Source of the DNA: Patescibacteria group bacterium
Lineage (GTDB): Bacteria; Patescibacteriota; Patescibacteriia; 2-01-FULL-39-33
Reading direction: 5' to 3'
Length of the DNA stretch: 32,000 nt
Assembly (NCBI GenBank): GCA_041649575.1
Contig: JBAZMW010000003.1
Location: 159,559 to 191,558 of the forward strand
Positions 3,319 through 21,263 of this stretch are shown here, in pieces (the first letter of the stretch is position 1; each line of letters begins with the position of its first letter). Under the pieces are notes generated by a model. That model had not been told where the DNA came from. It searched no databases and saw nothing but the letters and a program-made list of their open reading frames with translations. The translations under genes were made by a program, and so were the position numbers.

Positions 3319-3335
3319 TCTAATTTTAATTAACT

Positions 3336-3680: not shown

Positions 3681-3690
3681 TTCTTCACTA

Positions 3691-3726: not shown

Positions 3727-3738
3727 AAATCAGAAAAT

Positions 3739-9585: not shown

Positions 9586-9610
9586 ATAAATTAATTATTT
9601 TTATAATCAA

Positions 9611-9928: not shown

Positions 9929-10145
9929 AAATTTTATTTATTTTTTATTGTTAATTATTGAATTTTGTTTAAAATAACAGTATTCCAGCTAGAGCTTAAT
10001 CTGGCTGTCTGAATATATTATACCAAACAAAGAGAATTGGTGAAAGGGTGGCAAAATAAATAATTATTAACTAATTTTATTTATACTTTTTGGCTAAAAT
10101 TAGATAATATTCTTGATAAAAAAGAAGCTTTTTTCTCAACTACTA

Positions 10146-10174
10146 TTGACAAATTATTTATGGTATGCTATAAT
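10146..10174 (+). promoter_or_regulatory. consensus sigma70-type promoter of GC-rich unit A
   Basis: TTGACA (10146-10151), 17-nt spacer, TATAAT (10169-10174). The extended box TACTATTGACAAA...GTATGCTATAAT is shared with the promoter at 18386-18414. Confidence 0.7.
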
Positions 10175-10259
10175 GAGTAGTTCGGTAAGTAACCGAAAGC
10201 ACATCACAAAGGCAGCCCTGGTAATGACACCGGGGTTCGCAAGAGAAAAGGAGAAGACG

Positions 10260-11240
10260 ATGGGTACGGACACAGGAATAGAGGACGATGTGGTGATTAT
10301 TGGTGAGGACACCGGCATCGCTGACACCGGCATCGCTGACACAAAGACGAGTCGGCCGAAGCGTAAAGTCGGAATCTGGCGGATCGTGCTGGGCCTGATC
10401 GGCCTGGCGCTCATCGCCTTCGCGGCATTGACCGCGTACGGCCTGATCGTCAAGACCGACGCGATTGACCGGCGTGTCGTCGTGCTGGAAAATCGCGTCG
10501 ACGGTTTCGACGAACGCATCAAGGCCGGTGACGAGGCGGTCGAGGACATCTCCAAAGCCACCGACGATCTGTGGAGGCGAATGGCGAATGTCGAGAAACG
10601 CTTCGACAAGGATGGAGAATTCGCGAAGACCGTGGCCGCGGTTGCCAAGACCGCCGAAGACGTGACGGCGCTGCAAGCCGCGGTCGATGAAATCCCCGAT
10701 GCCATGGCCGAGGCCACAGCTGGAATCGAAGGCCGGGTCAAAGCCCTCGAAGACGGCGCCGCGCAGGCACAGGAGAGGGCCAGCCGCGAGCTCCTGATGC
10801 TCAAGGTTGCCGAGATCCGCCGCGCGAATCCGGCGAGCGATGTCAGCGCCATGAGCGACGCGGACATTGGCAAGACGCTGGCTGGCAAGGGCGGCAACGA
10901 TTTTCGCAAGAAGATTGAGGCCGCATACGTCAGCCTCGGAGCCAAGCCTGTCGTCACGGCACCAGCTCCGGCTCCAGCACCGGCACCAGCGCCAGCGGTA
11001 AATCTGGCTGAGGTAGAACGCCGGCTGGACGCGGCCGAGAAAGAAGTAAAACTTGTCGGGCAAGCCGCCAAAACCTTGGCGACGAATCCTGACAAGCCGA
11101 AGCACCTGGTGCGTGGCGCCAAGGCGAGGGCGCTCAAGCTGTTGGTGGATGTCCCCGACGACTTGCCACCCGCCTCCGCAAGACCGGCATCCCCGAAGAA
11201 GGACAACGTCATCCGGCCGGAGTTCGGGGACCGGCCGTAA
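10260..11240 (+). CDS. single-pass membrane protein with extracytoplasmic coiled coil and (PA)n linker, unknown function
   Basis: I place the start at ATG 10260 (AAGGAG 6 nt upstream), not the track start 10113, which overlaps the promoter. It has DTGI(A/E)D repeats, the TM helix IWRIVLGLIGLALIAFAALTAYGLIV, Ala/Glu-rich helices, and APAPAPAPAPAPA. One hand-counted 60-nt line is 62% GC, against 38% for a pyk line. Confidence 0.65.
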   Translation: MGTDTGIEDDVVIIGEDTGIADTGIADTKTSRPKRKVGIWRIVLGLIGLALIAFAALTAYGLIVKTDAIDRRVVVLENRVDGFDERIKAGDEAVEDISKATDDLWRRMANVEKRFDKDGEFAKTVAAVAKTAEDVTALQAAVDEIPDAMAEATAGIEGRVKALEDGAAQAQERASRELLMLKVAEIRRANPASDVSAMSDADIGKTLAGKGGNDFRKKIEAAYVSLGAKPVVTAPAPAPAPAPAPAVNLAEVERRLDAAEKEVKLVGQAAKTLATNPDKPKHLVRGAKARALKLLVDVPDDLPPASARPASPKKDNVIRPEFGDRP

Positions 11241-11274
11241 CACGTACCTTTGATCGCGCACCTCGTGCGTTAGC

Positions 11275-11320
11275 CCCCCCAGACTCTGGCAGTTTCATAG
11301 AGTCTGGGGGGTGAATTATT
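11275..11320 (+). terminator. hairpin terminator of unit A
   Basis: 12-13-bp stem CCCCCAGACTCT / AGAGTCTGGGGG with an 11-nt loop, followed by a weak T tract. Confidence 0.6.
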
Positions 11321-11344
11321 TTAGAGAGATTTTGCTTTTATATA

Positions 11345-11373
11345 TTGACTAAACAAGACAAAACTGATAAAAT
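11345..11373 (+). promoter_or_regulatory. sigma70-type promoter upstream of the tRNA-Asp region
   Basis: TTGACT, 17-nt spacer, TAAAAT. It is followed by ATATTTATGGATT, the same 13 nt that span the upstream edge and the 5' end of the intact tRNA-Asp. Confidence 0.55.
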
Positions 11374-11399
11374 TATTTTTGATATTTATGGATTACTGC

Positions 11400-11463
11400 C
11401 CCCGCCAGAATGACTCTGTCGGGCTGGCGCCCGACTGAACGGCGTTCAGCCGTTCGGGCGGGG
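11400..11463. repeat. degenerate member of the CCCCG-(Y)-(R)-GAAT three-way-junction element family
   Basis: Outer stem CCCCGCC / GGCGGGG encloses hairpins GTCGGGC-tggc-GCCCGAC and GAACGGC-gttca-GCCGTTC. Its 5' end CCCCGCCAGAAT resembles CCCCGTAGAAT of the next element. Confidence 0.5.
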
Positions 11464-11473
11464 CTCAGTCTTG

Positions 11474-11524
11474 CCCCGTAGAATACTGCTAAAGCAGTAG
11501 CGCCAGAGGCGCTATTCTACGGGG
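11474..11524. repeat. perfect 51-nt three-way-junction element (copy 1)
   Basis: 11-bp outer stem CCCCGTAGAAT / ATTCTACGGGG directly encloses ACTGC-taaa-GCAGT and AGCGCC-aga-GGCGCT, with no unpaired junction bases. Confidence 0.7.
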
Positions 11525-11528
11525 TGAA

Positions 11529-11563
11529 GTTAGAGCGCTCCCCCTGTCACGGAAGAGGGTCGC
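11529..11563 (+). pseudogene. decayed internal fragment of tRNA-Asp (D-stem 3' half to start of T-stem)
   Basis: GTTAGAGCGCTCCCCCTGTCACGGAAGAGGGTCGC matches GTTAGAGCGCTCCCCTGTCACGGGAGAGGTCGC of the intact gene, with 2 single-base indels and 1 mismatch. Confidence 0.7.
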
Positions 11564-11704
11564 CGTAGGCGACGGGCAGAAGCGAGCCATGAGCAAAGCG
11601 AATGAAACGAGCGTAGATGAATGCGACCATGGGAGCATTCGGCTCTGCCAGGAAACATCGGGTGCAACCCGCGACCGTCAAACTTTTTACAAGTTAATAT
11701 TTAT

Positions 11705-11778
11705 GGATTGGTAGCTCAGTTGGTTAGAGCGCTCCCCTGTCACGGGAGAGGTCGCGGGTTCGAGTCCCGTCCAGTCCG
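11705..11778 (+). tRNA. tRNA-Asp (anticodon GTC)
   Basis: Hand-folded cloverleaf with acceptor GGATTGG/CCAGTCC, D arm GCTC-AGTTGGTTA-GAGC, and anticodon arm CTCCC-CTGTCAC-GGGAG. T arm is GCGGG-TTCGAGT-CCCGT and the discriminator is G. CCA is not encoded. Confidence 0.9.
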
Positions 11779-11789
11779 CTGGATAAAAC

Positions 11790-11819
11790 AAAAATCACCC
11801 TTGCGGTGATTTTTGTTTT
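11790..11819 (+). terminator. terminator after tRNA-Asp
   Basis: ATCACC-cttgc-GGTGAT hairpin extended by A/T pairs, followed by TTTTGTTTT. Confidence 0.7.
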
Positions 11820-11956
11820 ACTACACGAAGTGGAGAGGGGCTCGAACGGGTTGGCAGCGAGGCAAATCCGAAGGATGCAGCCGAGCGTCAAAAATTGCGA
11901 GCTGGCGCAGCAATTTTTGCCAACCCAGGACAGAGTGAGCAAAGCGAACGCCGAGA

Positions 11957-11973
11957 AGTCCCGTCCAGTCCGC
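11957..11973 (+). repeat. 17-bp direct repeat of the tRNA-Asp 3' end (att-like scar)
   Basis: AGTCCCGTCCAGTCCGC is identical to 11763-11779. It is followed by its own terminator hairpin at 11984-12007. Confidence 0.75.
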
Positions 11974-11983
11974 ATTTTTCTAG

Positions 11984-12007
11984 TCAGCCCCAAGTGGGCT
12001 GATTTTT
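11984..12007 (+). terminator. terminator following the displaced tRNA 3' fragment
   Basis: TCAGCCC-caagt-GGGCTGA followed by TTTTTG. Confidence 0.65.
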
Positions 12008-12082
12008 GAGAATAAAAAAGAGCGGCGATCCACACGACGGTGAATCTCCCGCTCTACAATGTCCTGATAGCCTTTCAGCGGT

Positions 12083-12811
12083 TTATCCTCTGCCACCGCC
12101 GACCAGTGCGCGTAACGCGTTGAACATGCCATCAGCCACTTGTGTCCTTCGCGTATCCATGGACTCAAGCATGGCATCGATCCTGTCGAAGCCGTCTCGA
12201 CCGTACTCAAGAAGTGTTGGGCCATAGAATAGCCGCGTGAACAGTTCATTACCGACAAAACTCCATTCGGTGTAAGGCGTCTCTGAGTAACCGTCAGAGT
12301 TGTCGTGGATGTCGAAAACCCTGTTGGTGTGCGTACCGGCGATGAGAATATCGCCACCCTCGACTTGTCCGGTTACAGTCACCAACGCCTGTTGAAGCCT
12401 CTCCATAAAATACTCCTGGTACCACTCCCTGACTTTCGTCAGGACAATGTTTCTCGATTCCTCCGGAAGATTGGTGACAATGTGCCCGGTCTGCCTCGGA
12501 CTGAGCCTGACCATCGAGTTGCTGCTCAACTTGTCCAAGAACACGCCCAGACCGATGTTCAACCAGAGGCCATCCGTGAGGTTGAGAATGGGAGAGTTGA
12601 TGATAAAGATGTGTGTCCTAGCTTGATCTGGGTCCTGGGCAATTCGACGAATGACCTCCAGTCCGTCTTGTTGGTTGAGACAAAGGTGGGGACGAAAACA
12701 GCTTTCTTTCGCTTGCACTAGGGCAGCAATTCCCCTGTTAAGATCCTGGTGCAACTGTGACCGGTCGTCAAAGTCAACCAGTAGGGTGTGGCTTTTCTTC
12801 TGATCCGACAT
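12083..12811 (-). CDS. hypothetical protein (GC-rich unit B, leftward gene)
   Basis: Start moved to ATG 12811 (GAGGAG 6 nt upstream), giving MSDQKKSHTLLVDFDD... No TM helix and no motif I recognise. A hairpin plus T-run lies downstream on the minus strand at about 12008-12055. Confidence 0.6.
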   Translation of the reverse strand: MSDQKKSHTLLVDFDDRSQLHQDLNRGIAALVQAKESCFRPHLCLNQQDGLEVIRRIAQDPDQARTHIFIINSPILNLTDGLWLNIGLGVFLDKLSSNSMVRLSPRQTGHIVTNLPEESRNIVLTKVREWYQEYFMERLQQALVTVTGQVEGGDILIAGTHTNRVFDIHDNSDGYSETPYTEWSFVGNELFTRLFYGPTLLEYGRDGFDRIDAMLESMDTRRTQVADGMFNALRALVGGGRG

Positions 12812-12913
12812 ATTCTTCTCCTCGATGTTGACCAAAGAATGTACGATTGTTAAAAAGGTATACTAAATTAAGTATTTTGTCAAATACTAAAACATAATAA
12901 CTCATTATTACTA

Positions 12914-12942
12914 TTGACAAGCCTAATATCTTGTGCTAAACT
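12914..12942 (+). promoter_or_regulatory. sigma70-type promoter of the unit B rightward gene
   Basis: TACTATTGACAAG box: TTGACA 12914-12919, 17-nt spacer, TAAACT. Confidence 0.55.
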
Positions 12943-13021
12943 TACCAGTTATCGATTTTGAGTCAGTACTTTGTGTAGAGCACGACAAACCGGTTCCGTG
13001 ACATGAACAGGAGGACGACCA

Positions 13022-13399
13022 GTGAAAAACCACAATAGTTATGCCACTTACCAACCGAGCGACCAGCGGCTTCGCGAAGCCGACCACTGGGAGGTCTGGG
13101 ATAAGCTACCGCCCGAGCTCAAGTTTGAGGCAGTGGCGGCTCGCGACCCCTCTCTGACCGCTCTGTGTGCCCGAGACAAGGGCGTGTACGTCTGGGTATT
13201 CCCGCACGCTGTACCTTCGGTCCAAAGTGGCATTGGACCATTCATGGCTCTAGGGTCGCGACGCGGCAAGGATCGCATGGACTTCATCGTGACAACTCCT
13301 TCGGCGGATGACCCCATCGCGTTCGCCAAAGCCGAGAATGCGAGAAAGCTGAGGGAGCTGTCAAAGGGCGCCAAGGGTCCGAAGAACCATCAGAAATGA
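13022..13399 (+). CDS. hypothetical soluble protein (GC-rich unit B, rightward gene)
   Basis: GTG start with AGGAGG 7 nt upstream, 125 aa, no recognisable motif. A GCCGCA/TGCGGC hairpin plus T tract follows at about 13437-13466. Confidence 0.55.
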   Translation: MKNHNSYATYQPSDQRLREADHWEVWDKLPPELKFEAVAARDPSLTALCARDKGVYVWVFPHAVPSVQSGIGPFMALGSRRGKDRMDFIVTTPSADDPIAFAKAENARKLRELSKGAKGPKNHQK

Positions 13400-13516
13400 G
13401 ATGGGCGGTCGTCAAAGCCGCTACCGTCTCAACAACGCCGCATCAGCTACCTGGTGCGGCCGTTTTAAATAATAATTTTGTTATACAGATACCAAAAGAG
13501 TTAATTTCCATCCACT

Positions 13517-13670
13517 CCAGAGTCCTCCGCCTAAGCTAAAGTTTTGGCGGACAAGTAAAACCTGCCTTGACTCGCGTCAGGCCTGGCGTCGCCGAAGGCT
13601 ATGCCAAAGGCGCGTGAGGCAGGTCGTCCCGCAAGTCTCGGCAAAATAAACTCAGGACTCAATCACTTCC
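13517..13670. repeat. GC-rich structured intergenic element (family with 14605-14720)
   Basis: Nested stems GAGTCC/GGACTC, TCCGCC/GGCGGA and ACCTGCCT/AGGCAGGT. Contains the 17-nt motif GAGGCAGGTCGTCCCGC (13616-13632). Confidence 0.5.
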
Positions 13671-13746
13671 AAATCAATAAAATTTGCAAAAAGCGCTTTA
13701 TATTTGATATAATAAAAACACGACTTAAAAAATAATTTATCTAACT

Positions 13747-13950
13747 ATGCAAAAAATAGCTACAAGCATCTTTATCTTCGCGTCAATTGTTTTCGGCGTT
13801 ATAGGAATTTTAGTAGTTTTAACAATGCCAGGACCCGGCAGAACGAATTCGGATCTGAATGAATTATTTATTAGGCTTCTGTTCGCGACTGCCTTTATTA
13901 TACTGCCTTCATTTGCATTAAGCATCGCCGGTAAGTATCTAAAAAAATAG
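13747..13950 (+). CDS. small two-TM membrane protein
   Basis: 67-aa AT-rich ORF with two hydrophobic helices. A TTGCAA...TATAAT promoter-like sequence lies about 50 nt upstream, and a hairpin terminator follows at about 14083-14108. Confidence 0.5.
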   Translation: MQKIATSIFIFASIVFGVIGILVVLTMPGPGRTNSDLNELFIRLLFATAFIILPSFALSIAGKYLKK

Positions 13951-14187
13951 ATTCCGATTTTAAACTTCCTTAGTCCAGTCTTTATATCAGATGTTCTTCT
14001 TTTTTTAATTCCATTGGAATATCAACAATACCCCCGTGCTCTTAAAAAATTTACAATCTCAAAATTAATAAAAAAATCCCCATCAATGGGGGTATTTTTA
14101 TTTTCTGTCTTCTCTGGCGCCTATAATTACTGCCGCTATTACCAAAATTGTTAAAACCATAACTCCAAACAACATCATACCAAAATT

Positions 14188-14559
14188 TTACTTAATCTGT
14201 TTTTTCTTTTTAAACCAGCCGACGAGAAACAAGATGCCGATCAAAAACGCGACGCCGGAAAATTGTGCCGCCCATAATAATAAATACCACTCGAATTGAT
14301 TTCTCGCTAGCGCGGCCAGATACAACGCGCCAGCTAAAATAAAAATAGTTCCCCCAACAATTTCATATTTCCAAGAGATTATCAGAATAACCAGCAGCAC
14401 CAAGGCGGGAATATTGTGCATGAACAAACCGACAACCGTTCCCCAGAAACCCAGCTTCATATCGAAAATGTCCAGCGAAAACAACATCAAAAACAAAATA
14501 AACAAAATCGACAATATCCTTGGAATCCAATATATAAATCTATTAACATTATTCCTCAT
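14188..14559 (-). CDS. four-TM membrane protein, unknown function
   Basis: 123-aa hydrophobic ORF with host-like AT-rich composition. Confidence 0.55.
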   Translation of the reverse strand: MRNNVNRFIYWIPRILSILFILFLMLFSLDIFDMKLGFWGTVVGLFMHNIPALVLLVILIISWKYEIVGGTIFILAGALYLAALARNQFEWYLLLWAAQFSGVAFLIGILFLVGWFKKKKQIK

Positions 14560-14604
14560 ATTTATTGTTTTATTTATATAATCAGTCTTTGAGTTTATTA
14601 TACC

Positions 14605-14720
14605 ACTTCCTGCCCGTCTCGCCCAATCCGGAATTTTAAAACCCGCCCCGACTCAACGAGGCTGGTGCGAGGCAGGTTGTCCCGCGGTCAGAACAGCTGC
14701 CGGTCGGCGCCAAGGCGGCT
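14605..14720. repeat. GC-rich structured intergenic element (second copy of the family)
   Basis: Has the CCTGCC...CTCGC 5' arm and GCGAGGCAGG 3' arm. Contains GAGGCAGGTTGTCCCGC (14669-14685), which differs at 1 nt from the motif at 13616-13632. Confidence 0.5.
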
Positions 14721-14810
14721 GCTTTAAAAATTTTAATTTTTTGCAAGCTGCACCAATGAATGTTAAAAATATTTCTTAAAAATAAATCAACCTTAAAATT
14801 TCTGGTAAAT

Positions 14811-14840
14811 GAAAAAGGCCACCGCGACGTGCGATGGGCC
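14811..14840 (-). terminator. terminator of GC-rich unit C
   Basis: GGCC..CGC-gacgt-GCG..GGCC hairpin, followed on the minus strand by TTTTTC. Confidence 0.5.
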
Positions 14841-14861
14841 TGTAGTCACTTCGCCACCTGT

Positions 14862-15641
14862 TTAGGCGGCTTCGTAAAGGTTCTGGTTGTAGTACTCCAA
14901 CCGCAGACGGCCACGGCTGCCCTCGCCCGGTACGCCGACATACTTGGTGACGCCGCAGTTGCGAGGCTTTTGTTCTTCGTCCAGTACGATGAACTCCTCG
15001 GCCGAGAGACGTTCGTAGTTGGCGCGCAGAGCCAGAATGTTCAAGTGATGGGTGACGGCCAAAACCCTCTTGCCGGAAAATTCCCGGACCAGGGTGTTGG
15101 CCCAATCGCGGTTACGCTGGCGCACATCAGGAACATTCTCACCCTGAGGGTAGCGATACCAGTAGCGACCCTCCAATTGATACAACGCGCGCTGTTCCGG
15201 ATGAAGAGCAAAAAACACTCTCAAATCGTTGTAGACGTTGACCAGGCCGTGTTCCTGTTCCCGAATCCTTTCCTCTTCGTAGTACTTCACTCCTGCCAAC
15301 TCCGGCCAACCGGCAATTAGCCCCCGCCAGGTCGCCTGCGTGCGAGCGTAGGGAGAAACGAAGACTACATCAGGCAGGTCTTCTATCTTACTAAGCGCCA
15401 GCCCCGTCTTCGTTGCCCGCGTGGCTTCGGCATCAGCTAGAGGTGCATTGGCATCGCTTACACCGAGACGATACTTCTGCCACACCGCTATAGCCAATGC
15501 CCTACACCTATCAGTTTCTGGGTTTTCGTCATACTTTCTGACGAACTGCCGATAAAGATCGTCCGCCTCCTTCATCCACTTGAGCTGGTTGTAGGCAGAA
15601 ACATCGTGCCTTATGGCAATGATACAGGCTGGCCATTTCAT
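14862..15641 (-). CDS. histidine phosphatase superfamily protein (phosphoglycerate-mutase-like)
   Basis: Start set at MKWPAC (GAAGGAGG 10 nt upstream). Motifs are IIAIRHDVSAYN (an RHG-type box with D in place of G), VFVSPYARTQATW, EQEHG and VLAVTHHLNILAL. Confidence 0.65.
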   Translation of the reverse strand: MKWPACIIAIRHDVSAYNQLKWMKEADDLYRQFVRKYDENPETDRCRALAIAVWQKYRLGVSDANAPLADAEATRATKTGLALSKIEDLPDVVFVSPYARTQATWRGLIAGWPELAGVKYYEEERIREQEHGLVNVYNDLRVFFALHPEQRALYQLEGRYWYRYPQGENVPDVRQRNRDWANTLVREFSGKRVLAVTHHLNILALRANYERLSAEEFIVLDEEQKPRNCGVTKYVGVPGEGSRGRLRLEYYNQNLYEAA

Positions 15642-15821
15642 GGGCGTCAAGCCTCCTTCAAAAGTCACTCTCGCTGCTCTGGCAATCTGTCGTTACCGCC
15701 AGAAACCCAGAAATCCCTCTCGTCTATAAACCACATAAAGAACGGTTCCAGTTCATCGATCGCGTCGCTCCAAACGTCCTAATATTAAACGTTCAATCTC
15801 CCTTGTGTTGGAGAATAAATT

Positions 15822-15850
15822 ATTTTATTATATAAATTCCTTTTTGTCAA
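15822..15850 (-). promoter_or_regulatory. sigma70-type promoter of unit C
   Basis: On the minus strand: TTGACA, 17-nt spacer, TAAAAT. This leaves a leader of about 175 nt before the CDS. Confidence 0.55.
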
Positions 15851-15865
15851 CTGTCAAATTTTCTA

Positions 15866-15893
15866 AAACCCTCCCGATTAATCGGGAGGGTTT
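15866..15893. terminator. hairpin terminator after the pilin-like gene
   Basis: 12-bp stem AAACCCTCCCGA / TCGGGAGGGTTT with loop TTAA. Confidence 0.65.
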
Positions 15894-15917
15894 CAATTTT
15901 CAAACTCCGAGTTGCTT

Positions 15918-16433
15918 TTATTTTATTCCCAAAATTTCAAAAATCATTTTCAGAATAACATAGGAGAGAAAAATAATCACCAGGCCGGCAATCGCCCAGA
16001 TCATGGTGTTTTTGCCTTTAGTCACCCGGCCGGAATCGCCGCCGGAAACCATCCAGAGCAAGCCGCCGTAAATGAAAGCGATCAAAGCCAAGACTCCGGT
16101 GAACCCCAAGGCGGCGGTGATAATGTTTTTGGTGATGACTTGCACCGCCTCAATGCCTTTTTTGCCGCCGGTAATGCCCTCCAGGGGATCTTTCAGACTC
16201 TGGGCCGAACCAGCGCTGCCGCCAGAAACACCTGTACCTTCTGGAGCGGAAACACCTGTACCTTCGGCGACACATTCCCCAACCTCAGAAAAAGGGTCGG
16301 CAAAACTACAGATTTGACCAGGGCCGCAATCGGCTTTAGTAGTACAAGCTAAAACGATATTAGTGAGAGATAAAAATAAAAAAACAGAAAAACCAAAGAA
16401 TGTTAATATCAACCAACCGCTTTTTCTTTTCAT
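15918..16433 (-). CDS. secreted TrbC/VirB2-type (type IV secretion) pilin-like protein; tentative
   Basis: Signal/TM segment, a Cys-containing mature N-terminus, then two C-terminal TM helices separated by GGDSGRVTKGKN. This architecture is recalled from CPR T4SS-pilin families and was not verified. Confidence 0.45.
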   Translation of the reverse strand: MKRKSGWLILTFFGFSVFLFLSLTNIVLACTTKADCGPGQICSFADPFSEVGECVAEGTGVSAPEGTGVSGGSAGSAQSLKDPLEGITGGKKGIEAVQVITKNIITAALGFTGVLALIAFIYGGLLWMVSGGDSGRVTKGKNTMIWAIAGLVIIFLSYVILKMIFEILGIK

Positions 16434-16506
16434 AATATGTTATTAAATGGTATATATTAATTCAATTATAGCTAATGGCAAAAATAAAGTAAATAACAAT
16501 TTTAAC

Positions 16507-16550
16507 AAAAAGAAAAACGGCCCGAGTTGCGCGATGCAACCCTGGCCGTT
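16507..16550 (-). terminator. terminator of the three-gene GC-rich operon (unit D)
   Basis: AACGGCC...GGCCGTT stem with an inner GTTGC/GCAAC stem, followed on the minus strand by TTTTTCTTTTT. Confidence 0.65.
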
Positions 16551-16594
16551 GTAGAACCGGTTGGAATTGGAATAGGTGGGTGATACAAGGCCGA

Positions 16595-17182
16595 CTATGA
16601 GAAGCGTATTCTCCTGATATGGACCTCTCCAATGGAGAGGCCGTGGAGAACCAGCTGACCCTCACCGTCGATCTTGATCACCTCGTCGCTGGCGATCGTC
16701 TGATAACCGCCCGCCTTCTGCTTGATCTTGAAAGGAGCGGTTACGCGACTAAACTCCACGACGTCACCCGGGAAGATGGCCAGGCCGGAGCTGATCGGCT
16801 TACCAGGGCAGAACTTGATGTCCCTTTCCTCCACCGATCTGATCGTCTTGGCCTTGGGCAACGAGGGCAAGCGAATGGCGCTGACTTTCGCCGCCACCTT
16901 CGCCTTGGCGTCGACCAGGTACGCGGGACGATAGATCGTCACCAGGACCAAGGCCAGGCCTAGTCCAGCAGTGACGTAGAAAGCCTTTTTCTTGCCCATG
17001 GCCTCCCAGACGATCCCGCCGATACCCAGAAAAATCATCAGGGCAATAGTCGCCTGAATCGGAATCCTCGCATGCTGGTCGTCTTCCTGTGACCAGAAGA
17101 AGACGCCCAGGATAATCCCGATAACTACGGCGAAGGCAATCACCTTGCCAACCTTCTTAAGAAAACCCCAGGCTTCCTTCAT
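16595..17182 (-). CDS. membrane protein with C-terminal beta-rich domain (unit D, gene 3)
   Basis: Start at MKEAWGF (GGAAGGAGG upstream). Its ATG overlaps the stop of the upstream gene as ATGA. Three TM helices are followed by a ~95-aa soluble domain. Confidence 0.6.
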   Translation of the reverse strand: MKEAWGFLKKVGKVIAFAVVIGIILGVFFWSQEDDQHARIPIQATIALMIFLGIGGIVWEAMGKKKAFYVTAGLGLALVLVTIYRPAYLVDAKAKVAAKVSAIRLPSLPKAKTIRSVEERDIKFCPGKPISSGLAIFPGDVVEFSRVTAPFKIKQKAGGYQTIASDEVIKIDGEGQLVLHGLSIGEVHIRRIRFS

Positions 17183-17751
17183 GGCAGCATCCTCCTTCCT
17201 AGTAGCTTCCGCAAGATTTCGACTATGCCTTGGCCAGCCAGTTCGGACTTCAGATCCTTCCAGAATGTCCAACTCCCGGCACCCGTGGCACTTCCGGCAC
17301 CACCAGCACTTCCGCTGACCGTACCACGTTTGGTAGCACCGGCCAGGGTATTGTGTATAGCGTCAGCCAGCTCTTCGCGAAAGCTGAGTATCAGATACAC
17401 AATGGCTACTGGCCAAGTGAAGAAGGCCGCCTTCCACCACCACCATGACGGACAGTTATTGGCCGGTGACGGTGGCGTCTCATAGCCAAACACTTTGTCG
17501 AGCTGATGGAATATGTCTCGGCTGGCCGAGAAGAATAGCCCTTCGCCAAAGCCAACGAAGAATGCTTCCGCCGTGAAGACGATGGCGACGATAACCAGTC
17601 CGCAGGCACGGTAGTTATTGTTATACACCAGCCGCGCCGCCAGGTAGCCACAGTCGTAACTGATTCTCTCTGTCGTCATGCATGCCAGAAAGAGAAACAG
17701 CCCGACCGCTCCCGCCAAGAAGGCGAGATTGAGTATTATCCAGTTGATCAT
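17179..17751 (-). CDS. polytopic membrane protein with WWWW motif and Gly/Ser/Ala-rich tail (unit D, gene 2)
   Basis: 190-aa ORF with ATGA start/stop overlaps to both neighbouring genes. Confidence 0.6.
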   Translation of the reverse strand: MINWIILNLAFLAGAVGLFLFLACMTTERISYDCGYLAARLVYNNNYRACGLVIVAIVFTAEAFFVGFGEGLFFSASRDIFHQLDKVFGYETPPSPANNCPSWWWWKAAFFTWPVAIVYLILSFREELADAIHNTLAGATKRGTVSGSAGGAGSATGAGSWTFWKDLKSELAGQGIVEILRKLLGRRMLP

Positions 17752-18251
17752 GACCGCGTCTCCTTTCTGTTCTTCTCTGCCTTGGGCCGTATTACCCCAC
17801 GACGAACCAGTTCGTATTCGCGAACTTCCCTAAATGCGCCCCAAAAACCACCCATGTAGGACTTCTTGAATCTCGGTCCCAATATCGTGACGGTCTTGGT
17901 GTTCGCCTGGCTGCCCTTGTCCCTGAAGGTGAACATTTCACGTTTACCTCTGACTTGGTGCTCGTGGTGCCCACTTCCCTTTTCATCGGTAATGATGATC
18001 TTCTTCTTCCCGTCGTGGAGCATCACGATTTCGGTGCGTGGAATGGGTCGACCATCCTCGGTGAACTGAACGACGAATGCGGTTTGGCCGTCATCGTCCG
18101 TGTCAAAGGTCACCTCAATATCGTACTCCGCAGCCGCCGGCTTCTTCTCTTCTTTCTTGGAATCGCCTCTCGACTGGCCGCACTTCACGCACCTACCGGC
18201 CTTGAAGAAATTCACATTTCCACAGCCGCACGTCCAACTCTCGTTTGCCAT
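17748..18251 (-). CDS. zinc-ribbon (RanBP2-like) protein (unit D, gene 1)
   Basis: Start at MANESW (AAAGGAG upstream). WTCGCGNVNFFKAGRCVKC fits W-x-C-x-C-x3-N-x6-C-x2-C. A ~130-aa beta-rich domain follows. Confidence 0.6.
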   Translation of the reverse strand: MANESWTCGCGNVNFFKAGRCVKCGQSRGDSKKEEKKPAAAEYDIEVTFDTDDDGQTAFVVQFTEDGRPIPRTEIVMLHDGKKKIIITDEKGSGHHEHQVRGKREMFTFRDKGSQANTKTVTILGPRFKKSYMGGFWGAFREVREYELVRRGVIRPKAEKNRKETRS

Positions 18252-18385
18252 GGCCTTACTCTCCTTTCCTAATCCAACCGTTCTGTTAAAGAACTGGGCT
18301 GGAAACCGTTTTCCCTTGTTATACCCCTCTTCGCCTTGAAAAGGAGTCATTTCAGGGGAAAGCCGTTCCTCCAGCCTAACATATA

Positions 18386-18414
18386 ATTATAGCATACTAT
18401 CAATATTTTGTCAA
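18386..18414 (-). promoter_or_regulatory. consensus promoter of unit D
   Basis: The minus strand reads TACTATTGACAAAATATTGATAGTATGCTATAAT, i.e. TTGACA-17-TATAAT. About 31 of 34 positions are identical to the unit A promoter. Confidence 0.7.
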
Positions 18415-18487
18415 TAGTAAATTAAATAAATAAAAATAGCTAAATTTAGCTAAAAACTTAAAACGCAAAGGTTAAAAAAATATAGAG

Positions 18488-19324
18488 TTAATCTTCTGCT
18501 TTAGGTTTTGAATTTTTACGCCTCGACTCGCCGAAGGCGAGACAAGTAGCTTTGACTTTCAATATCCCTACGCCAGCTATGATTAATAGAACACTGATTA
18601 TTTGCGGCAGCCTGATTCCCCACCACAGAGCCGTCTCGTCGATACGGATAAACTCCATAAAAAATCTGATCAGCCCATAGCCGATAAAATAAATGGCCAA
18701 GAGCGACCCTGGCCGGCAGTTGTTTTTTCTGGCCAAAAGAAACAAGATCAAAAACAAAACAAAATCCAAAACAGATTCATACAAAAAAGCGGGCTGGAAA
18801 TATCGGTTTGACAAAAAAATTTCCGGACGATTTTTCGGTTCGATGGGAATGCCCCAGGGCAAGTTGGTGGGCCGACCAAACAACTCTTGATTGAAATAAT
18901 TGCCCCAGCGGCCAATGGCCTGGCCCAGGGCCAGAGCGGGAGCAGCCAAGTCGACTACTTGCCAAAAGGAAATTTTCTTTTTTCGGCTCCAAAAAATTAC
19001 CACGATGATGCCGCCAATAATGGCGCCATGAATCGCCAGGCCGCCTTGCCAAATTTTAAAAATCTCCGGCAAGTTGTGACTGTAATAGGACCAATCCAAA
19101 ACAAAAACCTGATAAAGACGGGCGCCCAAAATACCGCCGACAGCCAGCCAAAGGCCCAGGTCTAAAGCCAGCTCAAATTTTAGGCCTCTTCTTTTGGCCA
19201 GAGAGCCGGCGACCAGAATGCCCAGAAGCAAGCCCAAGACGATTATCAGACCATACCAGCGAAACGAGAGCGGCCCAAACTGGAAGATAATCGGCTGCGG
19301 ATAAAAATAATGAAAAAAATTCAT
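18488..19324 (-). CDS. lgt: prolipoprotein diacylglyceryl transferase
   Basis: FRWYGLIIVLG...GARLYQV...WQGGLAIHGAIIGG...GRWGNYFNQELFGRPTNLPWGI are canonical Lgt motifs. Confidence 0.9.
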   Translation of the reverse strand: MNFFHYFYPQPIIFQFGPLSFRWYGLIIVLGLLLGILVAGSLAKRRGLKFELALDLGLWLAVGGILGARLYQVFVLDWSYYSHNLPEIFKIWQGGLAIHGAIIGGIIVVIFWSRKKKISFWQVVDLAAPALALGQAIGRWGNYFNQELFGRPTNLPWGIPIEPKNRPEIFLSNRYFQPAFLYESVLDFVLFLILFLLARKNNCRPGSLLAIYFIGYGLIRFFMEFIRIDETALWWGIRLPQIISVLLIIAGVGILKVKATCLAFGESRRKNSKPKAED

Positions 19325-19342
19325 ATCTTAAAGTATAACAGA

Positions 19343-19381
19343 AAAATAAAAAAAATCGACCCCCGAACCGGAGTTCGGGGG
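19343..19381 (-). terminator. rho-independent terminator of the orphan unit E
   Basis: 9-bp stem CCCCCGAAC / GTTCGGGGG with a 4-nt loop, followed on the minus strand by a long T-run. Confidence 0.75.
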
Positions 19382-19425
19382 AATTAAAGCTTTGACCAAA
19401 GAAGTTCGCTTGGAGCAGTACAGGA

Positions 19426-19650
19426 TTACGTGGTGCCGCAATAGGCTGGCCGGTGGGAGCTGCGTCGCACAGTTCCTCTTGGCGGCCTTTCGGCTCTCCT
19501 GATCCGAGGGCGCTGAAGCGTGTTGGAGACTATCTGGTAGCCTCTCGCGACCAAGTCGCGGATGAATGCCTTCACCCTTCCACGTCCTTTCACCAGTGCC
19601 ATATGCAGCTGATCCTTCAAATCCCGATACCTGACAAGATACCTTCTCAT
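19426..19650 (-). CDS. possible 74-aa arginine-rich small protein (alternatively the unit is a non-coding RNA)
   Basis: MRRYLVRYRDLKDQLHMALVKGRGRVKAFIRDLVARGYQIV..., with AAGGAG 9 nt upstream. The frame is open further upstream, to 19743. No homology recognised. Confidence 0.3.
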   Translation of the reverse strand: MRRYLVRYRDLKDQLHMALVKGRGRVKAFIRDLVARGYQIVSNTLQRPRIRRAERPPRGTVRRSSHRPAYCGTT

Positions 19651-19751
19651 GCGCCATCGCTCCTTATGTTTTCCTCTGCCAGAATGCCCTATACTCATTT
19701 TCGACCAATCGGTTATGACCCTCCTTTCCAATGTCCACAGCATGATTGTTT

Positions 19752-19780
19752 ATCATAGCACCAGGCAGGAGGTTTGTCAA
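19752..19780 (-). promoter_or_regulatory. sigma70-type promoter of unit E
   Basis: On the minus strand: TTGACA, 17-nt spacer, TATGAT. Confidence 0.6.
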
Positions 19781-19802
19781 ACTTATCTTAAAGAAACTAC
19801 GT

Positions 19803-21263
19803 TTAAACGGTTTCCACCTTGACCAAATTGGTCTTGCCCTGGCGGCCAAACGGATGGCCGGTGACAATAATTATGGTCTCGCTTTTTTTGGCCAGCTTGG
19901 CTGTTTGCACCAATGTCTTGATTTTGGCAATCAGGGCTTCGAAAGAATTAACCAGCGGCAAAACAAAAGCGCTCACCCCCCAGCTTAGGGACAGCTGATT
20001 GGCGGTAAAAACTGAGGGAGTCAGGGCAATGATAATGGCTTTGGGTCGAAAGCTGGAAATGTTTCTGGCGGTGGCGCCGGAAACCGTGGCGCAGGCAATC
20101 AACTTGACCTTAGTCAAATCCTCGGCCAAATCCTGGGCCACAAAACTCATTATTTTATTAAGCGATTGATTTTTGTATTTGTTTTCTTTGGCTTCTTGCT
20201 CCTCTATCTCCCTGGCCTCGATTTCTTTGGCAATGCGCGACATCGCCGCCACGGCTCTAAGCGGATACTGACCGGTGGCGGTCTCTCCCGAAAGCATGAT
20301 GGCGTCGGTGCCGTCTAAAACGGCGTTGGCCACATCGGAAACTTCGGCGCGCGTCGGCAAAGGATTTCTGATCATCGAATCGAGCATTTGGGTGGCGACA
20401 ATCACCGGCTTGCCGGCTTGCCGGCATTCGTCGATAATCTTTTTTTGAATCAGAGGCAAGTCCTCAAAGGGCAGCTCGATGCCCAAGTCGCCGCGGGCGA
20501 TCATAATGGCGTCGGCCGCCGCCAAAATTTGCGAAAAATTCTTCACCGCTTCGCGGCGTTCGATTTTGGCAATAAGCTTGGTGTGCGCGCCACTAGTCTT
20601 GCTGCTGCCAGCCGGATAATATTTTTTTTCCAGAGCAAAAATCTTTTTTCTTAAATTGACAATGTCTTTGGCGTCTTTGACAAAAGAGAGGGCGATAAAA
20701 TCAACTTTGTTTTTGACGCCAAAATCGACATCGGCTAAATCCTTTTTGGTCAGTGGCGGACACTTGATAAGCGATTTAGGAAAATTCATGCCTTTGTGGG
20801 ATTTGATGATGCCGCCGGTGATCACTTTGCAGACAATAGTGTCATTTTTGATTTTGGTGACGCTTAACTCAATGGTGGCGTCGTCGATTAAAACCGGCTG
20901 ACCCGCCTTGAGGTCGCGGTATAGCTCTTTATATTGAATGGGAACGACGACAGCGGATTGGGACGACACTTGGCGCTTTGGGGGCACTAAAAAAACTTCC
21001 TGGCCGCGGCTGACTTTCAGGCCGGCTTGGCCCACTTCGCCGATACGAATACGCGGCCCCTGCAAATCCTGAATAATGGCCAGCTGGCTTTTCAGGCTTT
21101 TGGCCACGGAACGCAAATTACCGATAAGCAACCGGTGGTGCTTGTAGCTGCCATGGGAAAAATTAAGACGCGCCACATTCAGGCCGGCTTTGATCATTTT
21201 TTCCATAATGATTTTGGTCTGAGAAGCCGGGCCAATGGTGGCTACGATTTTGGTGCGTTTCAT
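19803..21263 (-). CDS. pyk: pyruvate kinase
   Basis: MKRTKIVATIGPAS...NVARLNFSHGSYKHH...MIARGDLGIELP...VATQMLDSM are canonical motifs. Confidence 0.95.
   Translation of the reverse strand: MKRTKIVATIGPASQTKIIMEKMIKAGLNVARLNFSHGSYKHHRLLIGNLRSVAKSLKSQLAIIQDLQGPRIRIGEVGQAGLKVSRGQEVFLVPPKRQVSSQSAVVVPIQYKELYRDLKAGQPVLIDDATIELSVTKIKNDTIVCKVITGGIIKSHKGMNFPKSLIKCPPLTKKDLADVDFGVKNKVDFIALSFVKDAKDIVNLRKKIFALEKKYYPAGSSKTSGAHTKLIAKIERREAVKNFSQILAAADAIMIARGDLGIELPFEDLPLIQKKIIDECRQAGKPVIVATQMLDSMIRNPLPTRAEVSDVANAVLDGTDAIMLSGETATGQYPLRAVAAMSRIAKEIEAREIEEQEAKENKYKNQSLNKIMSFVAQDLAEDLTKVKLIACATVSGATARNISSFRPKAIIIALTPSVFTANQLSLSWGVSAFVLPLVNSFEALIAKIKTLVQTAKLAKKSETIIIVTGHPFGRQGKTNLVKVETV

What the first reader, a model, noticed from the sequence alone, without database searches (positions are those of the whole stretch)
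10146..19780. Five self-contained GC-rich transcription units interleaved with AT-rich core genes
Unit A spans 10146-11320, unit B 12008-13466 (a divergent gene pair), unit C 14811-15850, unit D 16507-18414 (three genes) and unit E 19343-19780. Each consists of GC-rich ORF(s) bracketed by its own near-consensus TTGACA-N17-TAnAAT promoter in an AT-rich stub, a long 5' leader, and a hairpin terminator. One sampled line is 62% GC against 38% in pyk. The units sit between ordinary AT-rich genes (tRNA-Asp, small membrane proteins, the pilin-like gene, lgt, pyk). None of their eight proteins has a function I can assign, except a histidine-phosphatase fold. This is the classical 'moron' signature: an autonomous promoter-gene-terminator module of deviant composition. 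No phage, integrase or transposase gene is nearby. Possible sources include a high-GC host or partner organism; the (PA)n linker and composition are actinobacteria-like, but this is speculative.
Basis: partly seen in the sequence, partly recalled or inferred. Interest (0 to 1): 0.7.

Follow-up and report, generated by a model that had tools for sequence, protein, structure and literature searches.

The report
GC-rich accessory genes, not phage morons
The five GC-rich blocks are real, separately transcribed genes of a Patescibacteria (CPR) chromosome with a codon usage unlike their neighbours', but two blocks are conserved in the same place in related genomes, so they are this lineage's fast-evolving accessory genes rather than phage "morons" or imports from a high-GC host.

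Summary
The window is part of a 191.6-kb contig of a Patescibacteria MAG.

**What holds.** The five units exist at the stated coordinates. Each has a near-consensus sigma-70 promoter, Shine-Dalgarno-led ORFs and a hairpin terminator. They are GC-richer (52-63%) than the other genes (37-51%).

**What is overstated or not specific.**
- pyk is 50% GC overall, not 38%.
- Equally good promoters and terminators also flank core genes, so the modular layout is genome-wide.

**The real signal is codon usage.** GC3 at two-fold sites is 0.57-0.80 in all eight unit genes and 0.23-0.46 in all 20 other genes, with no overlap. Four-fold GC3 does not differ.

**Against the moron / foreign-donor reading.**
- No phage context was found.
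- Unit C (histidine phosphatase) has hundreds of Patescibacteria homologues.
- Units C and D are syntenic in related genomes.
- Their orthologues there show the same codon offset.

**Still open.** Units A, B and E have no homologue I could find; B and E were never searched globally. The slot holding unit E is empty or holds unrelated small ORFs in relatives.

**Verdict.** This is a gene-turnover zone in a conserved backbone, holding lineage-specific accessory genes. The cause of the persistent GC-rich codon usage is unresolved. Interest is modest.

The parts
10146..10174 (+). Unit A promoter, TTGACA-17-TATAAT with TG extension
   Evidence: 12/12. It is 91% identical over 34 nt to the unit D promoter.
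10260..11240 (+). Unit A gene, 326 aa. It has an N-terminal TM anchor, an Ala-rich coiled coil and a (PA)n linker. GC 0.63; two-fold GC3 0.68.
   Evidence: SD 'aaggagaag' lies just upstream of the ATG. A gene of the same 326 aa was called on the Logan contig L164. No hit in 1.84 billion representative proteins. Only sub-threshold coiled-coil matches in Pfam and NCBIfam. Codon data.
11274..11325 (+). Unit A terminator: 13-bp GC-rich hairpin (CCCCCCAGACTCT / AGAGTCTGGGGGG) followed by a T-rich tail
   Evidence: Read from the sequence. The scan missed it because the loop is 11 nt.
11529..11973 (+). tRNA-Asp neighbourhood (context). Intact tRNA-Asp at 11705-11779. A 35-nt copy of tRNA positions 19-51 at 11529-11563. 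An exact 17-nt copy of the tRNA 3' end at 11957-11973. A 13-nt direct repeat TGAGCAAAGCGAA at 11590 and 11936.
   Evidence: Both tRNA fragments lie 194 nt from the matching tRNA positions. The Logan assembly breaks at 11458-11749.
12083..12811 (-). Unit B gene B1, 242 aa ORFan. GC 0.52; two-fold GC3 0.63.
   Evidence: SD GAGGAG upstream of the ATG. No hit in Pfam, PHROGs, NCBIfam, PADLOC, PDB sequences or phages. The AlphaFold single-sequence model was unusable, pLDDT 35.
12914..13460 (+). Unit B gene B2 with its signals: promoter 12914-12942 (10/12), ORF 13022-13399 (125 aa; GC 0.58; two-fold GC3 0.68), terminator 13437-13460
   Evidence: No family or PDB match.
14819..15850 (-). Unit C: promoter 15850-15822 (11/12), ~175-nt leader, histidine phosphatase gene 14862-15641 (259 aa; GC 0.55; two-fold GC3 0.60), terminator 14837-14819
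   Evidence: Pfam His_Phos_1, 51 bits against a cut-off of 21.7. 639 homologues, the named ones Patescibacteria. Syntenic in L004.
18386..18414 (-). Unit D promoter, TTGACA-17-TATAAT with TG extension
   Evidence: 12/12. Promoter, spacer and initial transcribed sequence are conserved in L089 and L084.
18297..18353 (-). Conserved two-hairpin motif in the ~130-nt leader of the D operon (CCYUUUU...AAGAGGGU, then GGGAA...UUCC)
   Evidence: Leader folding z-scores are -2.8, -4.0 and -2.2 in the window, L089 and L084. Consensus structure has 17 pairs, 3 with compensatory changes. A covariance model found no further copy in 2 Mb of related loci.
16595..18251 (-). Unit D operon. D3 17748-18251: 167 aa, N-terminal RanBP2-like zinc finger, C-terminal GFWG motif. 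D2 17179-17751: 190 aa membrane protein with 'PSWWWWK'. D1 16595-17182: 195 aa, TM segments plus a C-terminal beta domain. GC 0.53-0.56; two-fold GC3 0.57-0.80.
   Evidence: Homologues occur in the same order between lgt and the pilin gene in L084 and L089; a D1 homologue occurs in L004. The D3 start at 18251 is inferred from the homologues' N-termini (MANW.../MANESW). The zinc finger matches RBM10, E = 0.009.
16506..16549 (-). Unit D terminator: hairpin ACGGCC...GGCCGT followed by a T-run
   Evidence: Read from the sequence.
19345..19780 (-). Unit E. Promoter 19780-19752 (11/12). SD plus a TTG-initiated 14-codon uORF at 19708-19664. SD plus a 74-aa basic ORF at 19650-19426 (GC 0.57; two-fold GC3 0.58). 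Terminator 19381-19360 with a T-run, 20 nt before the lgt start codon.
   Evidence: Not unusually structured (z = -0.55). Not called by NCBI; called by the Logan pipeline. Analogous but unrelated small units sit upstream of lgt in L084 and L004; they are absent in L110.
15918..16433 (-). VirB2/TrbC-like 'T4SS_pilin' gene. This is the backbone neighbour of units C and D.
   Evidence: Pfam PF18895, E = 2.6e-9. Conserved next to the D operon in L004, L084 and L089.
18488..21263 (-). Backbone genes lgt (18488-19324) and pyk (19803-21263), which use the core codon usage (two-fold GC3 0.31 and 0.39)
   Evidence: Orthologues are 51-64% identical in L004, L084, L089, L096, L110 and L147.

Best explanation
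The five blocks are ordinary, separately transcribed chromosomal genes of a Patescibacteria (Parcubacteria/Buchananbacteria-like) genome. They make up its lineage-specific, fast-evolving accessory fraction. They sit in the gaps of a conserved backbone: groEL, two small membrane proteins, pyk, lgt, a VirB2-like pilin, then the histidine phosphatase.

**How they work (mostly shown).** Each unit is driven by a near-consensus sigma-70 promoter, as the core genes of this genome are. Each is translated from a canonical Shine-Dalgarno site and closed by an intrinsic terminator.

**Why they look GC-rich (shown).**
- Their proteins hold more Gly/Ala/Arg/Pro and fewer Phe/Tyr/Met/Ile/Asn/Lys residues.
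- They use G/C-ending codons at two-fold sites (Lys AAG 79% against 24%; Phe TTC 68% against 24%).
- Four-fold sites have the same G+C content as in core genes.

**Age of the units (shown for C and D, inferred for the rest).**
- Unit C is a histidine phosphatase found across Patescibacteria.
- Unit D is a three-gene operon next to the pilin gene: a zinc-finger protein and two membrane proteins, with a conserved promoter and leader.
- Both are old residents, present in the same place in related genomes.
- Units A, B and E are ORFans in positions where gene content turns over between relatives. They were probably gained from, or diverged beyond recognition within, the Patescibacteria gene pool.

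The cause of the codon usage is not settled. The functions of A, B, D and E are unknown. By topology (TM segments, coiled coil, pilin neighbour) they look like cell-envelope proteins; this is inference.
For: **Origin and assembly**
- The proteins are annotated as from a Patescibacteria MAG on a 191,558-bp contig.
- A second assembly reproduces all unit junctions.

**Architecture is genome-wide**
- Promoters and terminators are present at the units and also at core genes.

**Codon split**
- Two-fold GC3 is 0.57-0.80 in the units and 0.23-0.46 in the 20 other genes (p = 2.6e-5).
- Four-fold GC3 is 0.67 against 0.63 (p = 0.47).
- GARP residues are 0.31 against 0.23.

**Unit C**
- It has 639 homologues; the 120 best listed are 53-70% identical, and the named ones are Parcubacteria.

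**Synteny**
- L004 reads m142, m105, pyk, [h138], lgt, Band_7, D1 homologue, pilin x2, MarR, His_Phos.
- L084 and L089 read lgt ... D3, D2, D1 homologues, pilin.
- The same codon offset appears in these orthologues (p = 0.001, 0.017 and 0.018).
- The backbone proteins there are only 50-62% identical.
- The D promoter and leader are conserved at the nucleotide level.

**Turnover and wider pattern**
- The pyk|lgt slot is empty in L110 and holds 3 kb of other genes in L096 and L147. In L004 it holds an unrelated small GC-rich ORF. L084 has a similar unrelated ORF directly upstream of lgt, but no pyk on the stretch held.
- Codon-deviant genes occur in 32 of 98 comparable loci.
- Genomic islands and mostly intra-phylum transfer are reported for Patescibacteria (PMC12455944).
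Against: - A distinct codon usage is the classical mark of foreign DNA.
- Within the core class there is no gradient with expected expression: rplT, groEL, Wzy and RT all lie at 0.30-0.38.
- The histidine phosphatase is a strong codon outlier in some genomes (z up to 7) and matches its surroundings in others. Its gene context is conserved only in L004. This fits repeated lateral movement.
- tRNA-Asp fragments between units A and B look like recombination or integration scars.
- A and D3 were searched globally. B1, B2, D1, D2 and E were compared only with family libraries and 163 related loci, so 'ORFan' is weaker for them.
- The word-index search for unit A was swamped by low-complexity words. 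The exhaustive search did not even return a self-hit, so the library may not hold this protein.
- Only 32 kb of the genome was available, so 'core codon usage' rests on 20 genes.
Confidence: 0.6

Rival explanations
1. The units are moron-like foreign cassettes, each recently inserted with its own promoter and terminator, from a GC-rich donor such as an actinobacterial host or a phage.
For: Deviant GC and a sharply different codon usage. Autonomous promoters and terminators. A, B and E have no detectable relatives, and their positions vary between genomes. tRNA-Asp fragments lie beside units A and B.
Against: There is no phage, integrase or transposase gene, and no PHROG hit except a generic His_Phos family. 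There is no phage or viral-contig match. C and D are syntenic in relatives with the same offset. C's named homologues are nearly all Patescibacteria. Four-fold GC3 equals that of core genes. Core genes have the same promoter/terminator design. No homologue points to Actinobacteria.
Confidence: 0.08
2. The GC-rich codon usage is an intrinsic, long-maintained property of one class of genes, not a trace of import. It could be kept by selection (for example translation tuned to a particular tRNA supply or condition) or by GC-biased gene conversion in segments that recombine often.
For: Orthologous D-operon genes and the histidine phosphatase keep the offset in four genomes whose backbone proteins are only 50-62% identical. 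Synonymous sites there should be saturated and any import long since equalised. The DGR target gene at 30978-31568, which must co-reside with its template repeat, uses the same GC-rich codons (0.68), while the RT and Avd genes use the core codon usage. The units carry the strongest promoters in the region.
Against: The histidine phosphatase shows no offset in about half of 65 genomes (median z = 0.58). Four-fold sites are not GC-enriched in the window, which does not fit a general GC-biased conversion. No expression data exist. Ribosomal and chaperone genes do not share this codon usage.
Confidence: 0.22
3. Unit E is not a protein gene in its own right. It is a leader-peptide-containing regulatory leader of lgt, with promoter, uORF and a conditional terminator directly upstream of lgt.
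For: No lgt promoter passed the scan, and the unit E terminator ends 20 nt before the lgt start codon. A strong SD plus a TTG-initiated uORF of 10-15 codons is present in the equivalent leaders of the window, L084 and L004, although the downstream ORFs are unrelated (uORFs read from the sequence). NCBI did not call a gene here.
Against: The transcript is not unusually structured (z = -0.55). The 74-aa ORF has its own good SD (AAGGAG, 9 nt) and coding-like GC1/2/3. -10-like boxes lie between the terminator and lgt (read from the sequence). L110 has lgt directly after pyk with no such unit.
Confidence: 0.15
4. Assembly or binning chimera: GC-rich fragments of another organism were stitched into an AT-richer CPR contig.
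For: Alternating composition on a metagenome-assembled contig.
Against: A second assembler gives identical contigs across all junctions. The same interleaving, with homologous genes, occurs in three other genomes from unrelated samples. AT-rich promoters of the host type are joined seamlessly to the GC-rich ORFs.
Confidence: 0.02

Closest known systems
Phage 'morons' (autonomous promoter-gene-terminator insertions between prophage genes; concept recalled from my own knowledge, Hendrix and colleagues)
   Same: Single genes or small operons, each with its own promoter and terminator and a composition unlike the flanking genes.
   Different: There is no prophage. The flanks are lgt, pyk, a tRNA and a pilin gene. 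The host's core genes have the same modular design. Two of the five units are conserved in place in related genomes.
Genomic islands / islets and flexible 'replacement' islands between conserved flanks; genomic islands in Patescibacteria as surveyed in PMC12455944
   Same: Atypical composition, ORFan-rich content, a neighbouring tRNA with repeated tRNA fragments, variable gene content at equivalent positions between genomes, and likely cell-envelope products.
   Different: The islets are very small (0.4-1.9 kb) and interleaved gene by gene with backbone genes. There is no integrase. They are GC-richer than the host rather than AT-richer. The D operon and the histidine phosphatase keep the deviant codon usage while staying syntenic over deep divergence.
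Histidine phosphatase superfamily, branch 1 (PF00300; annotated PhoE / phosphoglycerate-mutase-like) - unit C only
   Same: The Pfam hit is above the cut-off. The RH catalytic dipeptide and the downstream histidines are invariant in an alignment of 33 homologues.
   Different: This is a Patescibacteria-specific subfamily of about 257 aa with an unknown substrate. It scores far below the cut-offs of the cobC, PspA and RNase H-phosphatase equivalogs.
RanBP2-type zinc fingers (ZRANB2, RBM10) - N-terminus of D3
   Same: The W-x-C...C-x3-N-x6-C-x2-C pattern. A weak sequence match to the RBM10 and ZNF265 fingers. NCBI names the protein accordingly.
   Different: Only one residue lies between the first two cysteines. 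There is no Pfam hit at E <= 0.01. The context is bacterial. RNA binding is untested.

Membership tests
Phage moron | Lies inside a phage or prophage genome, between phage genes | tested here: not met
   Pfam, PHROGs and PADLOC on all window genes found no phage structural, integrase or lysis genes. The flanks are tRNA-Asp, pilin, lgt and pyk. No phage or viral-contig matches.
Phage moron | Own promoter and terminator, transcribed independently of its neighbours | tested here: met
   Consensus scans and sequence reading. This is prediction only, with no RNA data. The same holds for core genes.
Phage moron | Nucleotide composition differs from the flanking genes | tested here: met
   GC 0.52-0.63 against 0.37-0.51. 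Two-fold GC3 0.57-0.80 against 0.23-0.46.
Phage moron | Present or absent between otherwise collinear relatives (an insertion, not an ancestral gene) | tested here: inconclusive
   Not met for C and D, which are syntenic in L004, L084 and L089. Met for the E position, which is empty in L110 and holds unrelated ORFs in L004 and L084. A and B have no collinear relative available.
tRNA-linked genomic island | Integrase or recombinase gene at one end | tested here: not met
   No such domain in any window ORF of 100 aa or more.
tRNA-linked genomic island | Direct repeats derived from the tRNA 3' end bracket the island | tested here: inconclusive
   An exact 17-nt copy of the tRNA-Asp 3' end lies only 178 nt downstream of the gene. 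A 35-nt internal fragment lies upstream. No further copy exists in 32 kb. These are scars, and they do not bracket units A or B.
tRNA-linked genomic island | Atypical composition and patchy distribution | tested here: met
   Composition. A and D3 have no homologue in global searches. B1 and B2 have none in 163 related loci.
Histidine phosphatase superfamily branch 1 (unit C) | Match to PF00300 above the gathering score, with the catalytic RH(G/D) motif and a second histidine | tested here: met
   51.1 bits against 21.7. R11, H12 and H198/H199 are invariant in 33 sequences.
RanBP2-type zinc finger (D3 N-terminus) | W-x-C-x(2,4)-C-x3-N-x6-C-x2-C pattern and a family-model match | tested here: inconclusive
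   The sequence is WTCGCGNVNFFKAGRCVKC, where the first spacing is 1 rather than 2-4. No Pfam hit at E <= 0.01. The PDB phmmer match to the RBM10 finger has E = 0.009.
Diversity-generating retroelement (right end of the window, not part of the finding) | RT plus an accessory (Avd) gene, and a template repeat whose adenines are the mismatched positions in the variable repeats | tested here: met
   RVT_1 at 5e-18 and bAvd at 9e-10. TR 30477-30589 against VRs 31003-31115 and 31667-31779. Excluding mismatches at the repeat edges, 17 of 18 and 14 of 14 mismatches fall at T on the + strand, which is A on the coding strand.

The most novel reading that the evidence does not exclude
Some Patescibacteria genomes may keep two stable codon usages. 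A class of fast-evolving accessory or envelope genes would stay GC-ending at two-fold codons whatever the host genome's composition, even in syntenic orthologues separated by saturating divergence. In this window that class comprises the pilin-linked zinc-finger/membrane operon, a phylum-wide histidine phosphatase, DGR targets and ORFans. This would imply a dedicated force: constant allele replacement from a shared GC-richer mobile pool, recombination-linked biased conversion, or condition-specific translation control. A candidate cis-regulatory leader conserved upstream of the D operon might be bound by its own zinc-finger protein.
Probability: 0.2. Interest if true: 0.6.

Novelty: new member of a known kind. 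Interest (0 to 1): 0.35.

Why it matters
Composition-based island calling would flag all five units as foreign. Here that inference fails for at least two of them, which is a useful caution for HGT surveys in CPR genomes.

If the two-codon-usage pattern is genome-wide and conserved, it would give a simple sequence marker for the poorly understood accessory and envelope gene fraction of Patescibacteria. It would also raise a concrete question about what keeps that codon usage distinct.

The conserved D operon beside the VirB2-like pilin gene, with its conserved leader, is a tractable candidate for CPR-specific surface biology. Otherwise the finding is ordinary accessory-gene mosaicism.

Tried and rejected
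1. **Structured ncRNA in the GC-rich stretches.** Rfam found only the tRNA and tmRNA, at both gathering and E-value thresholds. Unit E folds no better than shuffles. Rejected.
2. **A shared repeat or MITE at unit borders.** A short-word self-BLAST of all intergenic segments found only the A/D promoter similarity, the tRNA fragments and a terminator-like hairpin. The 'gaggcaggtYgtcccgc' resemblance I saw by eye was not supported.
3. **DGR variable repeats inside the units.** None; the DGR repeats are confined to 30.4-32 kb.
4. **Word-index homologue search for unit A.** Uninformative: low-complexity words filled the candidate list. The exhaustive search that replaced it found nothing, not even a self-match.
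5. **Single-protein scans of viral contigs for A, B1 and D2.** These use exact 8-mers and can find only near-identical relatives; they were empty.
6. **AlphaFold on B1 without an alignment.** pLDDT 35, unusable, so no fold search was run.
7. **Homology between unit E, L084's 74-aa ORF and L004's 138-aa ORF.** None by tblastn or phmmer.
8. **A ~194-nt tandem array around tRNA-Asp.** An alignment of consecutive 194-nt units shows no similarity beyond the tRNA fragments.
9. **Covariance model of the D-operon leader.** No further instance in 2 Mb of related loci, and none upstream of the other units.
10. **Translational-selection explanation.** Weakened because ribosomal, chaperone and rarely expressed core genes share one codon usage.

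Full report
**Source and setting**

Exact-sequence look-ups place the window on a 191,558-bp contig of a 'Patescibacteria group bacterium' MAG, with NCBI proteins MFA5029723-33 and locus tags WC518_03170 onwards. The window is 47.5% GC.

Its gene content is as follows:
- Left of the finding: an AI-2E transporter, smpB, tmRNA, infC, rplT and a 1948-aa ORF with no family match.
- Right of the finding: pyk, two small membrane proteins, groEL, a radical-SAM/SPASM protein, a Wzy-like ligase, an M23/LysM peptidase and a diversity-generating retroelement.

Largely yes.
- The scan finds TTGACA-17-TATAAT at 10146 and 18414 (12/12 each), 11/12 matches at 19780 and 15850, and 10/12 at 12914.
- It finds hairpin terminators at 13437, 14837 and 19381.
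- The terminators of A (11274-11311) and D (16549-16517) are plain in the sequence.
- All unit ORFs have canonical Shine-Dalgarno sites.
- Unit genes are 52-63% GC and the remaining genes 37-51%.
- Two Logan contigs from run SRR8542065 are 100% identical to window 2473-11457 and 11750-20427. A second assembler therefore reproduces every unit/core junction.
- Compared with 76 loci of 10 kb or more from related genomes, the window's GC heterogeneity is high but not unique: sd 0.068, against a median of 0.044 and a maximum of 0.078.

Two things are overstated.
- pyk is 50% GC overall, not 38%.
- The promoter-gene-terminator design is not special to the units. 12/12 or 11/12 promoters also precede the AI-2E transporter, the M23 peptidase and groES/EL. 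tRNA-Asp, the 67-aa gene and the pilin gene also have their own signals.

**What makes the units different**

The contrast is in codon usage, and it is sharper than GC alone.

| Measure | Eight unit genes | Twenty other genes | Test |
|---|---|---|---|
| GC3 at two-fold sites | 0.57-0.80 | 0.23-0.46 (no overlap) | p = 2.6e-5 |
| Lys AAG | 79% | 24% | p = 8e-23 |
| Phe TTC | 68% | 24% | p = 5e-11 |
| GC3 at four-fold sites (mean) | 0.67 | 0.63 | p = 0.47 |
| Gly/Ala/Arg/Pro fraction (mean) | 0.31 | 0.23 | p = 0.0014 |
| Phe/Tyr/Met/Ile/Asn/Lys fraction (mean) | 0.24 | 0.31 | p = 0.0041 |

Core genes are GC-rich at four-fold sites but AT-rich at two-fold sites. The units are uniform at about 0.66 for both. 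The DGR target gene at 30978-31568 uses the same GC-rich codons as the units (0.68), while the RT and Avd genes use the core codon usage.

**Are the units foreign?**

*Family searches.* Only two assignments emerged. Unit C is a histidine phosphatase (PF00300), and the gene between C and D is a T4SS_pilin. D3 has a weak RanBP2-type zinc-finger match.

*Unit C.* It has 639 homologues; the 120 best listed are 53-70% identical. Those that carry names are Parcubacteria or Patescibacteria, apart from one 'Binatia' bin.

*ORFans.* Unit A has no hit among 1.84 billion representative proteins. D3 finds only itself.

*Phage link.* Tblastn against phages found nothing for A and B1. For C it found only two distant jumbo-phage matches of 26-32% identity. 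Viral-contig scans for A, B1 and D2 were empty.

*Synteny.* I fetched 80 loci around histidine-phosphatase homologues from species-representative genomes. I fetched a further 80 around lgt homologues from metagenomes.
- L004 (Candidatus Buchananbacteria, 40% GC) reads m142, m105, pyk, [138-aa ORF], lgt, Band_7, 230-aa protein, pilin, pilin, MarR, histidine phosphatase. The 230-aa protein is homologous to D1, E = 7e-8.
- L084 and L089 carry homologues of D3, D2 and D1, in that order, between lgt and the pilin gene. They are 26-41% identical, against 49-62% for lgt and the pilin.
- L110 continues the backbone (M23, the homologue of the 318-aa ORF at 26581-27537, Wzy, groEL, m142, m107, pyk, lgt) with pyk and lgt adjacent and no unit E.

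Units C and D are therefore ancestral residents of this backbone.

*The offset persists in relatives.* In all three relatives, the genes at these positions are again the GC-rich, codon-deviant ones.

| Locus | Two-fold GC3, unit-position genes | Two-fold GC3, backbone genes | p |
|---|---|---|---|
| L004 | 0.40-0.54 | 0.18-0.30 | 0.001 |
| L084 | 0.38-0.45 | 0.22-0.41 | 0.017 |
| L089 | 0.45-0.53 | 0.22-0.39 | 0.018 |

. With backbone proteins only 50-62% identical, synonymous sites should be saturated and any ancient import equalised. That last step is inference from established amelioration arguments.

**What remains compatible with lateral movement**

- The histidine phosphatase is GC-richer than its flanks in 64 of 78 loci (mean +3.9 points). 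It is a strong codon outlier in some genomes (L022 z = 7.0, L026 z = 4.6, L018 z = 3.8). In about half it matches its surroundings.
- The outlier copies are only 50-60% identical to one another, so there is no single recent donor.
- The gene's context is conserved only in L004.
- The position upstream of lgt holds unit E in the window, an unrelated 74-aa ORF in L084 and an unrelated 138-aa ORF in L004. Each is GC-rich with an 11/12 promoter.
- A, B1 and B2 have no counterpart in any of the 163 loci.
- tRNA-Asp is flanked, at equal 194-nt spacing, by a 35-nt internal fragment and an exact 17-nt 3'-end copy of itself. A 13-nt direct repeat lies nearby, and the Logan assembly breaks there.
- Codon-deviant genes occur in 32 of 98 comparable loci, and some recur between genomes.
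- A published survey reports hundreds of genomic islands in Patescibacteria MAGs, with most transfers inside the phylum (PMC12455944).

**Best reading**

The region is a zone of gene turnover in a conserved backbone. Its occupants are the lineage's accessory genes, and they are of different ages.
- C and D are old and vertically retained.
- A, B and E are lineage-specific and of unknown age.
- All are expressed through the genome's normal promoter and terminator grammar.
- 'Moron' fails on its defining context.
- 'Actinobacterial donor' has no supporting hit.
- The cause of the shared codon usage is open. Recurrent exchange within a GC-richer Patescibacteria accessory pool and a maintained gene-class bias both fit parts of the data, and neither fits all.

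**Side results on mechanism**

- The D-operon promoter, spacer and first transcribed bases are conserved in the window, L089 and L084.
- Its ~130-nt leader contains a conserved two-hairpin motif at 18353-18297. Fold z-scores are -2.8, -4.0 and -2.2, and 3 of 17 pairs are compensatory.
- A covariance model found no other copy.
- Eukaryotic RanBP2-type fingers bind GGU-containing single-stranded RNA (my own knowledge). Autoregulation of the operon by D3 is therefore a testable speculation.
- Unit E and its positional analogues each carry a strong SD followed by a TTG-initiated uORF of 10-15 codons (read from the sequences). Unit E could therefore be a regulatory leader of lgt rather than, or as well as, a 74-aa protein gene.

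**Limits**

- Only 32 kb of the genome was available.
- Three global protein searches were allowed, and one was lost to low-complexity words.
- B1, B2, D1, D2 and E were not searched globally.
- No expression or read-level data were available.

Noticed in passing
window 28936-32000: A complete diversity-generating retroelement. RT at 28936-30066(-), bAvd-like gene at 30114-30485(+), template repeat at 30477-30589. Two variable repeats at 31003-31115 and 31667-31779 lie inside two tandem paralogous target genes (30978-31568 and a second that runs off the window). Nearly all TR/VR mismatches fall at adenines of the coding strand. The 62% GC block at the right end is the DGR target region. The target gene uses the GC-rich codons of the units; the RT and Avd genes do not.
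   Followed up: partly
window 11529-11973: tRNA-Asp (11705-11779) is flanked by a 35-nt copy of its positions 19-51 (11529-11563) and an exact 17-nt copy of its 3' end (11957-11973). Both are offset by 194 nt. A 13-nt direct repeat TGAGCAAAGCGAA lies at 11590 and 11936. A 10/12 promoter at 11345 sits 330 nt upstream of the tRNA. The Logan assembly breaks at 11458-11749. This is possibly a scar of integration or recombination; it is unexplained.
   Followed up: partly
window 18297-18353 (-); L089 6539-6597; L084 5663-5727: A conserved two-hairpin motif in the 5' leader of the D operon. The promoter is conserved at the nucleotide level, including its spacer, across three genomes whose proteins are only 26-62% identical. 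L084 carries a tandem partial duplicate (5742-5805). This is a candidate cis-regulatory RNA, based on only three sequences.
   Followed up: partly
window 19664-19708 (-); L084 ~2545-2592; L004 ~5160-5192: Short TTG-initiated upstream ORFs (14, 15 and 10 codons) behind strong Shine-Dalgarno sites, in the leaders of the small GC-rich units that sit upstream of lgt in three genomes. In the window, the uORF stop codon overlaps the SD of the 74-aa ORF.
   Followed up: no
window 10141-10174 vs 18419-18386: The promoters of unit A and unit D are 91% identical over 34 nt, spacer included. B2 shares the 'ACTATTGACAA' upstream context. This is either a shared origin or a strongly constrained extended promoter type.
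   Followed up: partly
window 3739-9585 (-): A 1948-aa ORF with no Pfam match and no homologue in 163 related loci. It has internal 106-nt tandem repeats (4922-5153) encoding Pro/Ala/Gly/Glu-rich segments. Its codon usage is of the core type (two-fold GC3 0.32).
   Followed up: no
L020 7195-9811; L043 2075-5252; L071 3315-16511; L047 4176-6183: Other Patescibacteria loci hold clusters of codon-deviant, GC-richer genes, some right next to the histidine phosphatase gene. One small protein recurs (N-terminus MPNI(H/M)M(V/I)GF...) in both L020 and L043. This hints at a shared accessory gene set with its own composition.
   Followed up: no
window 15865-15893 and 22079-22102: Near-identical (about 92%) GC-rich terminator hairpins lie downstream of the pilin gene and downstream of the groEL gene (upstream of the 142-aa membrane protein gene).
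   Followed up: no
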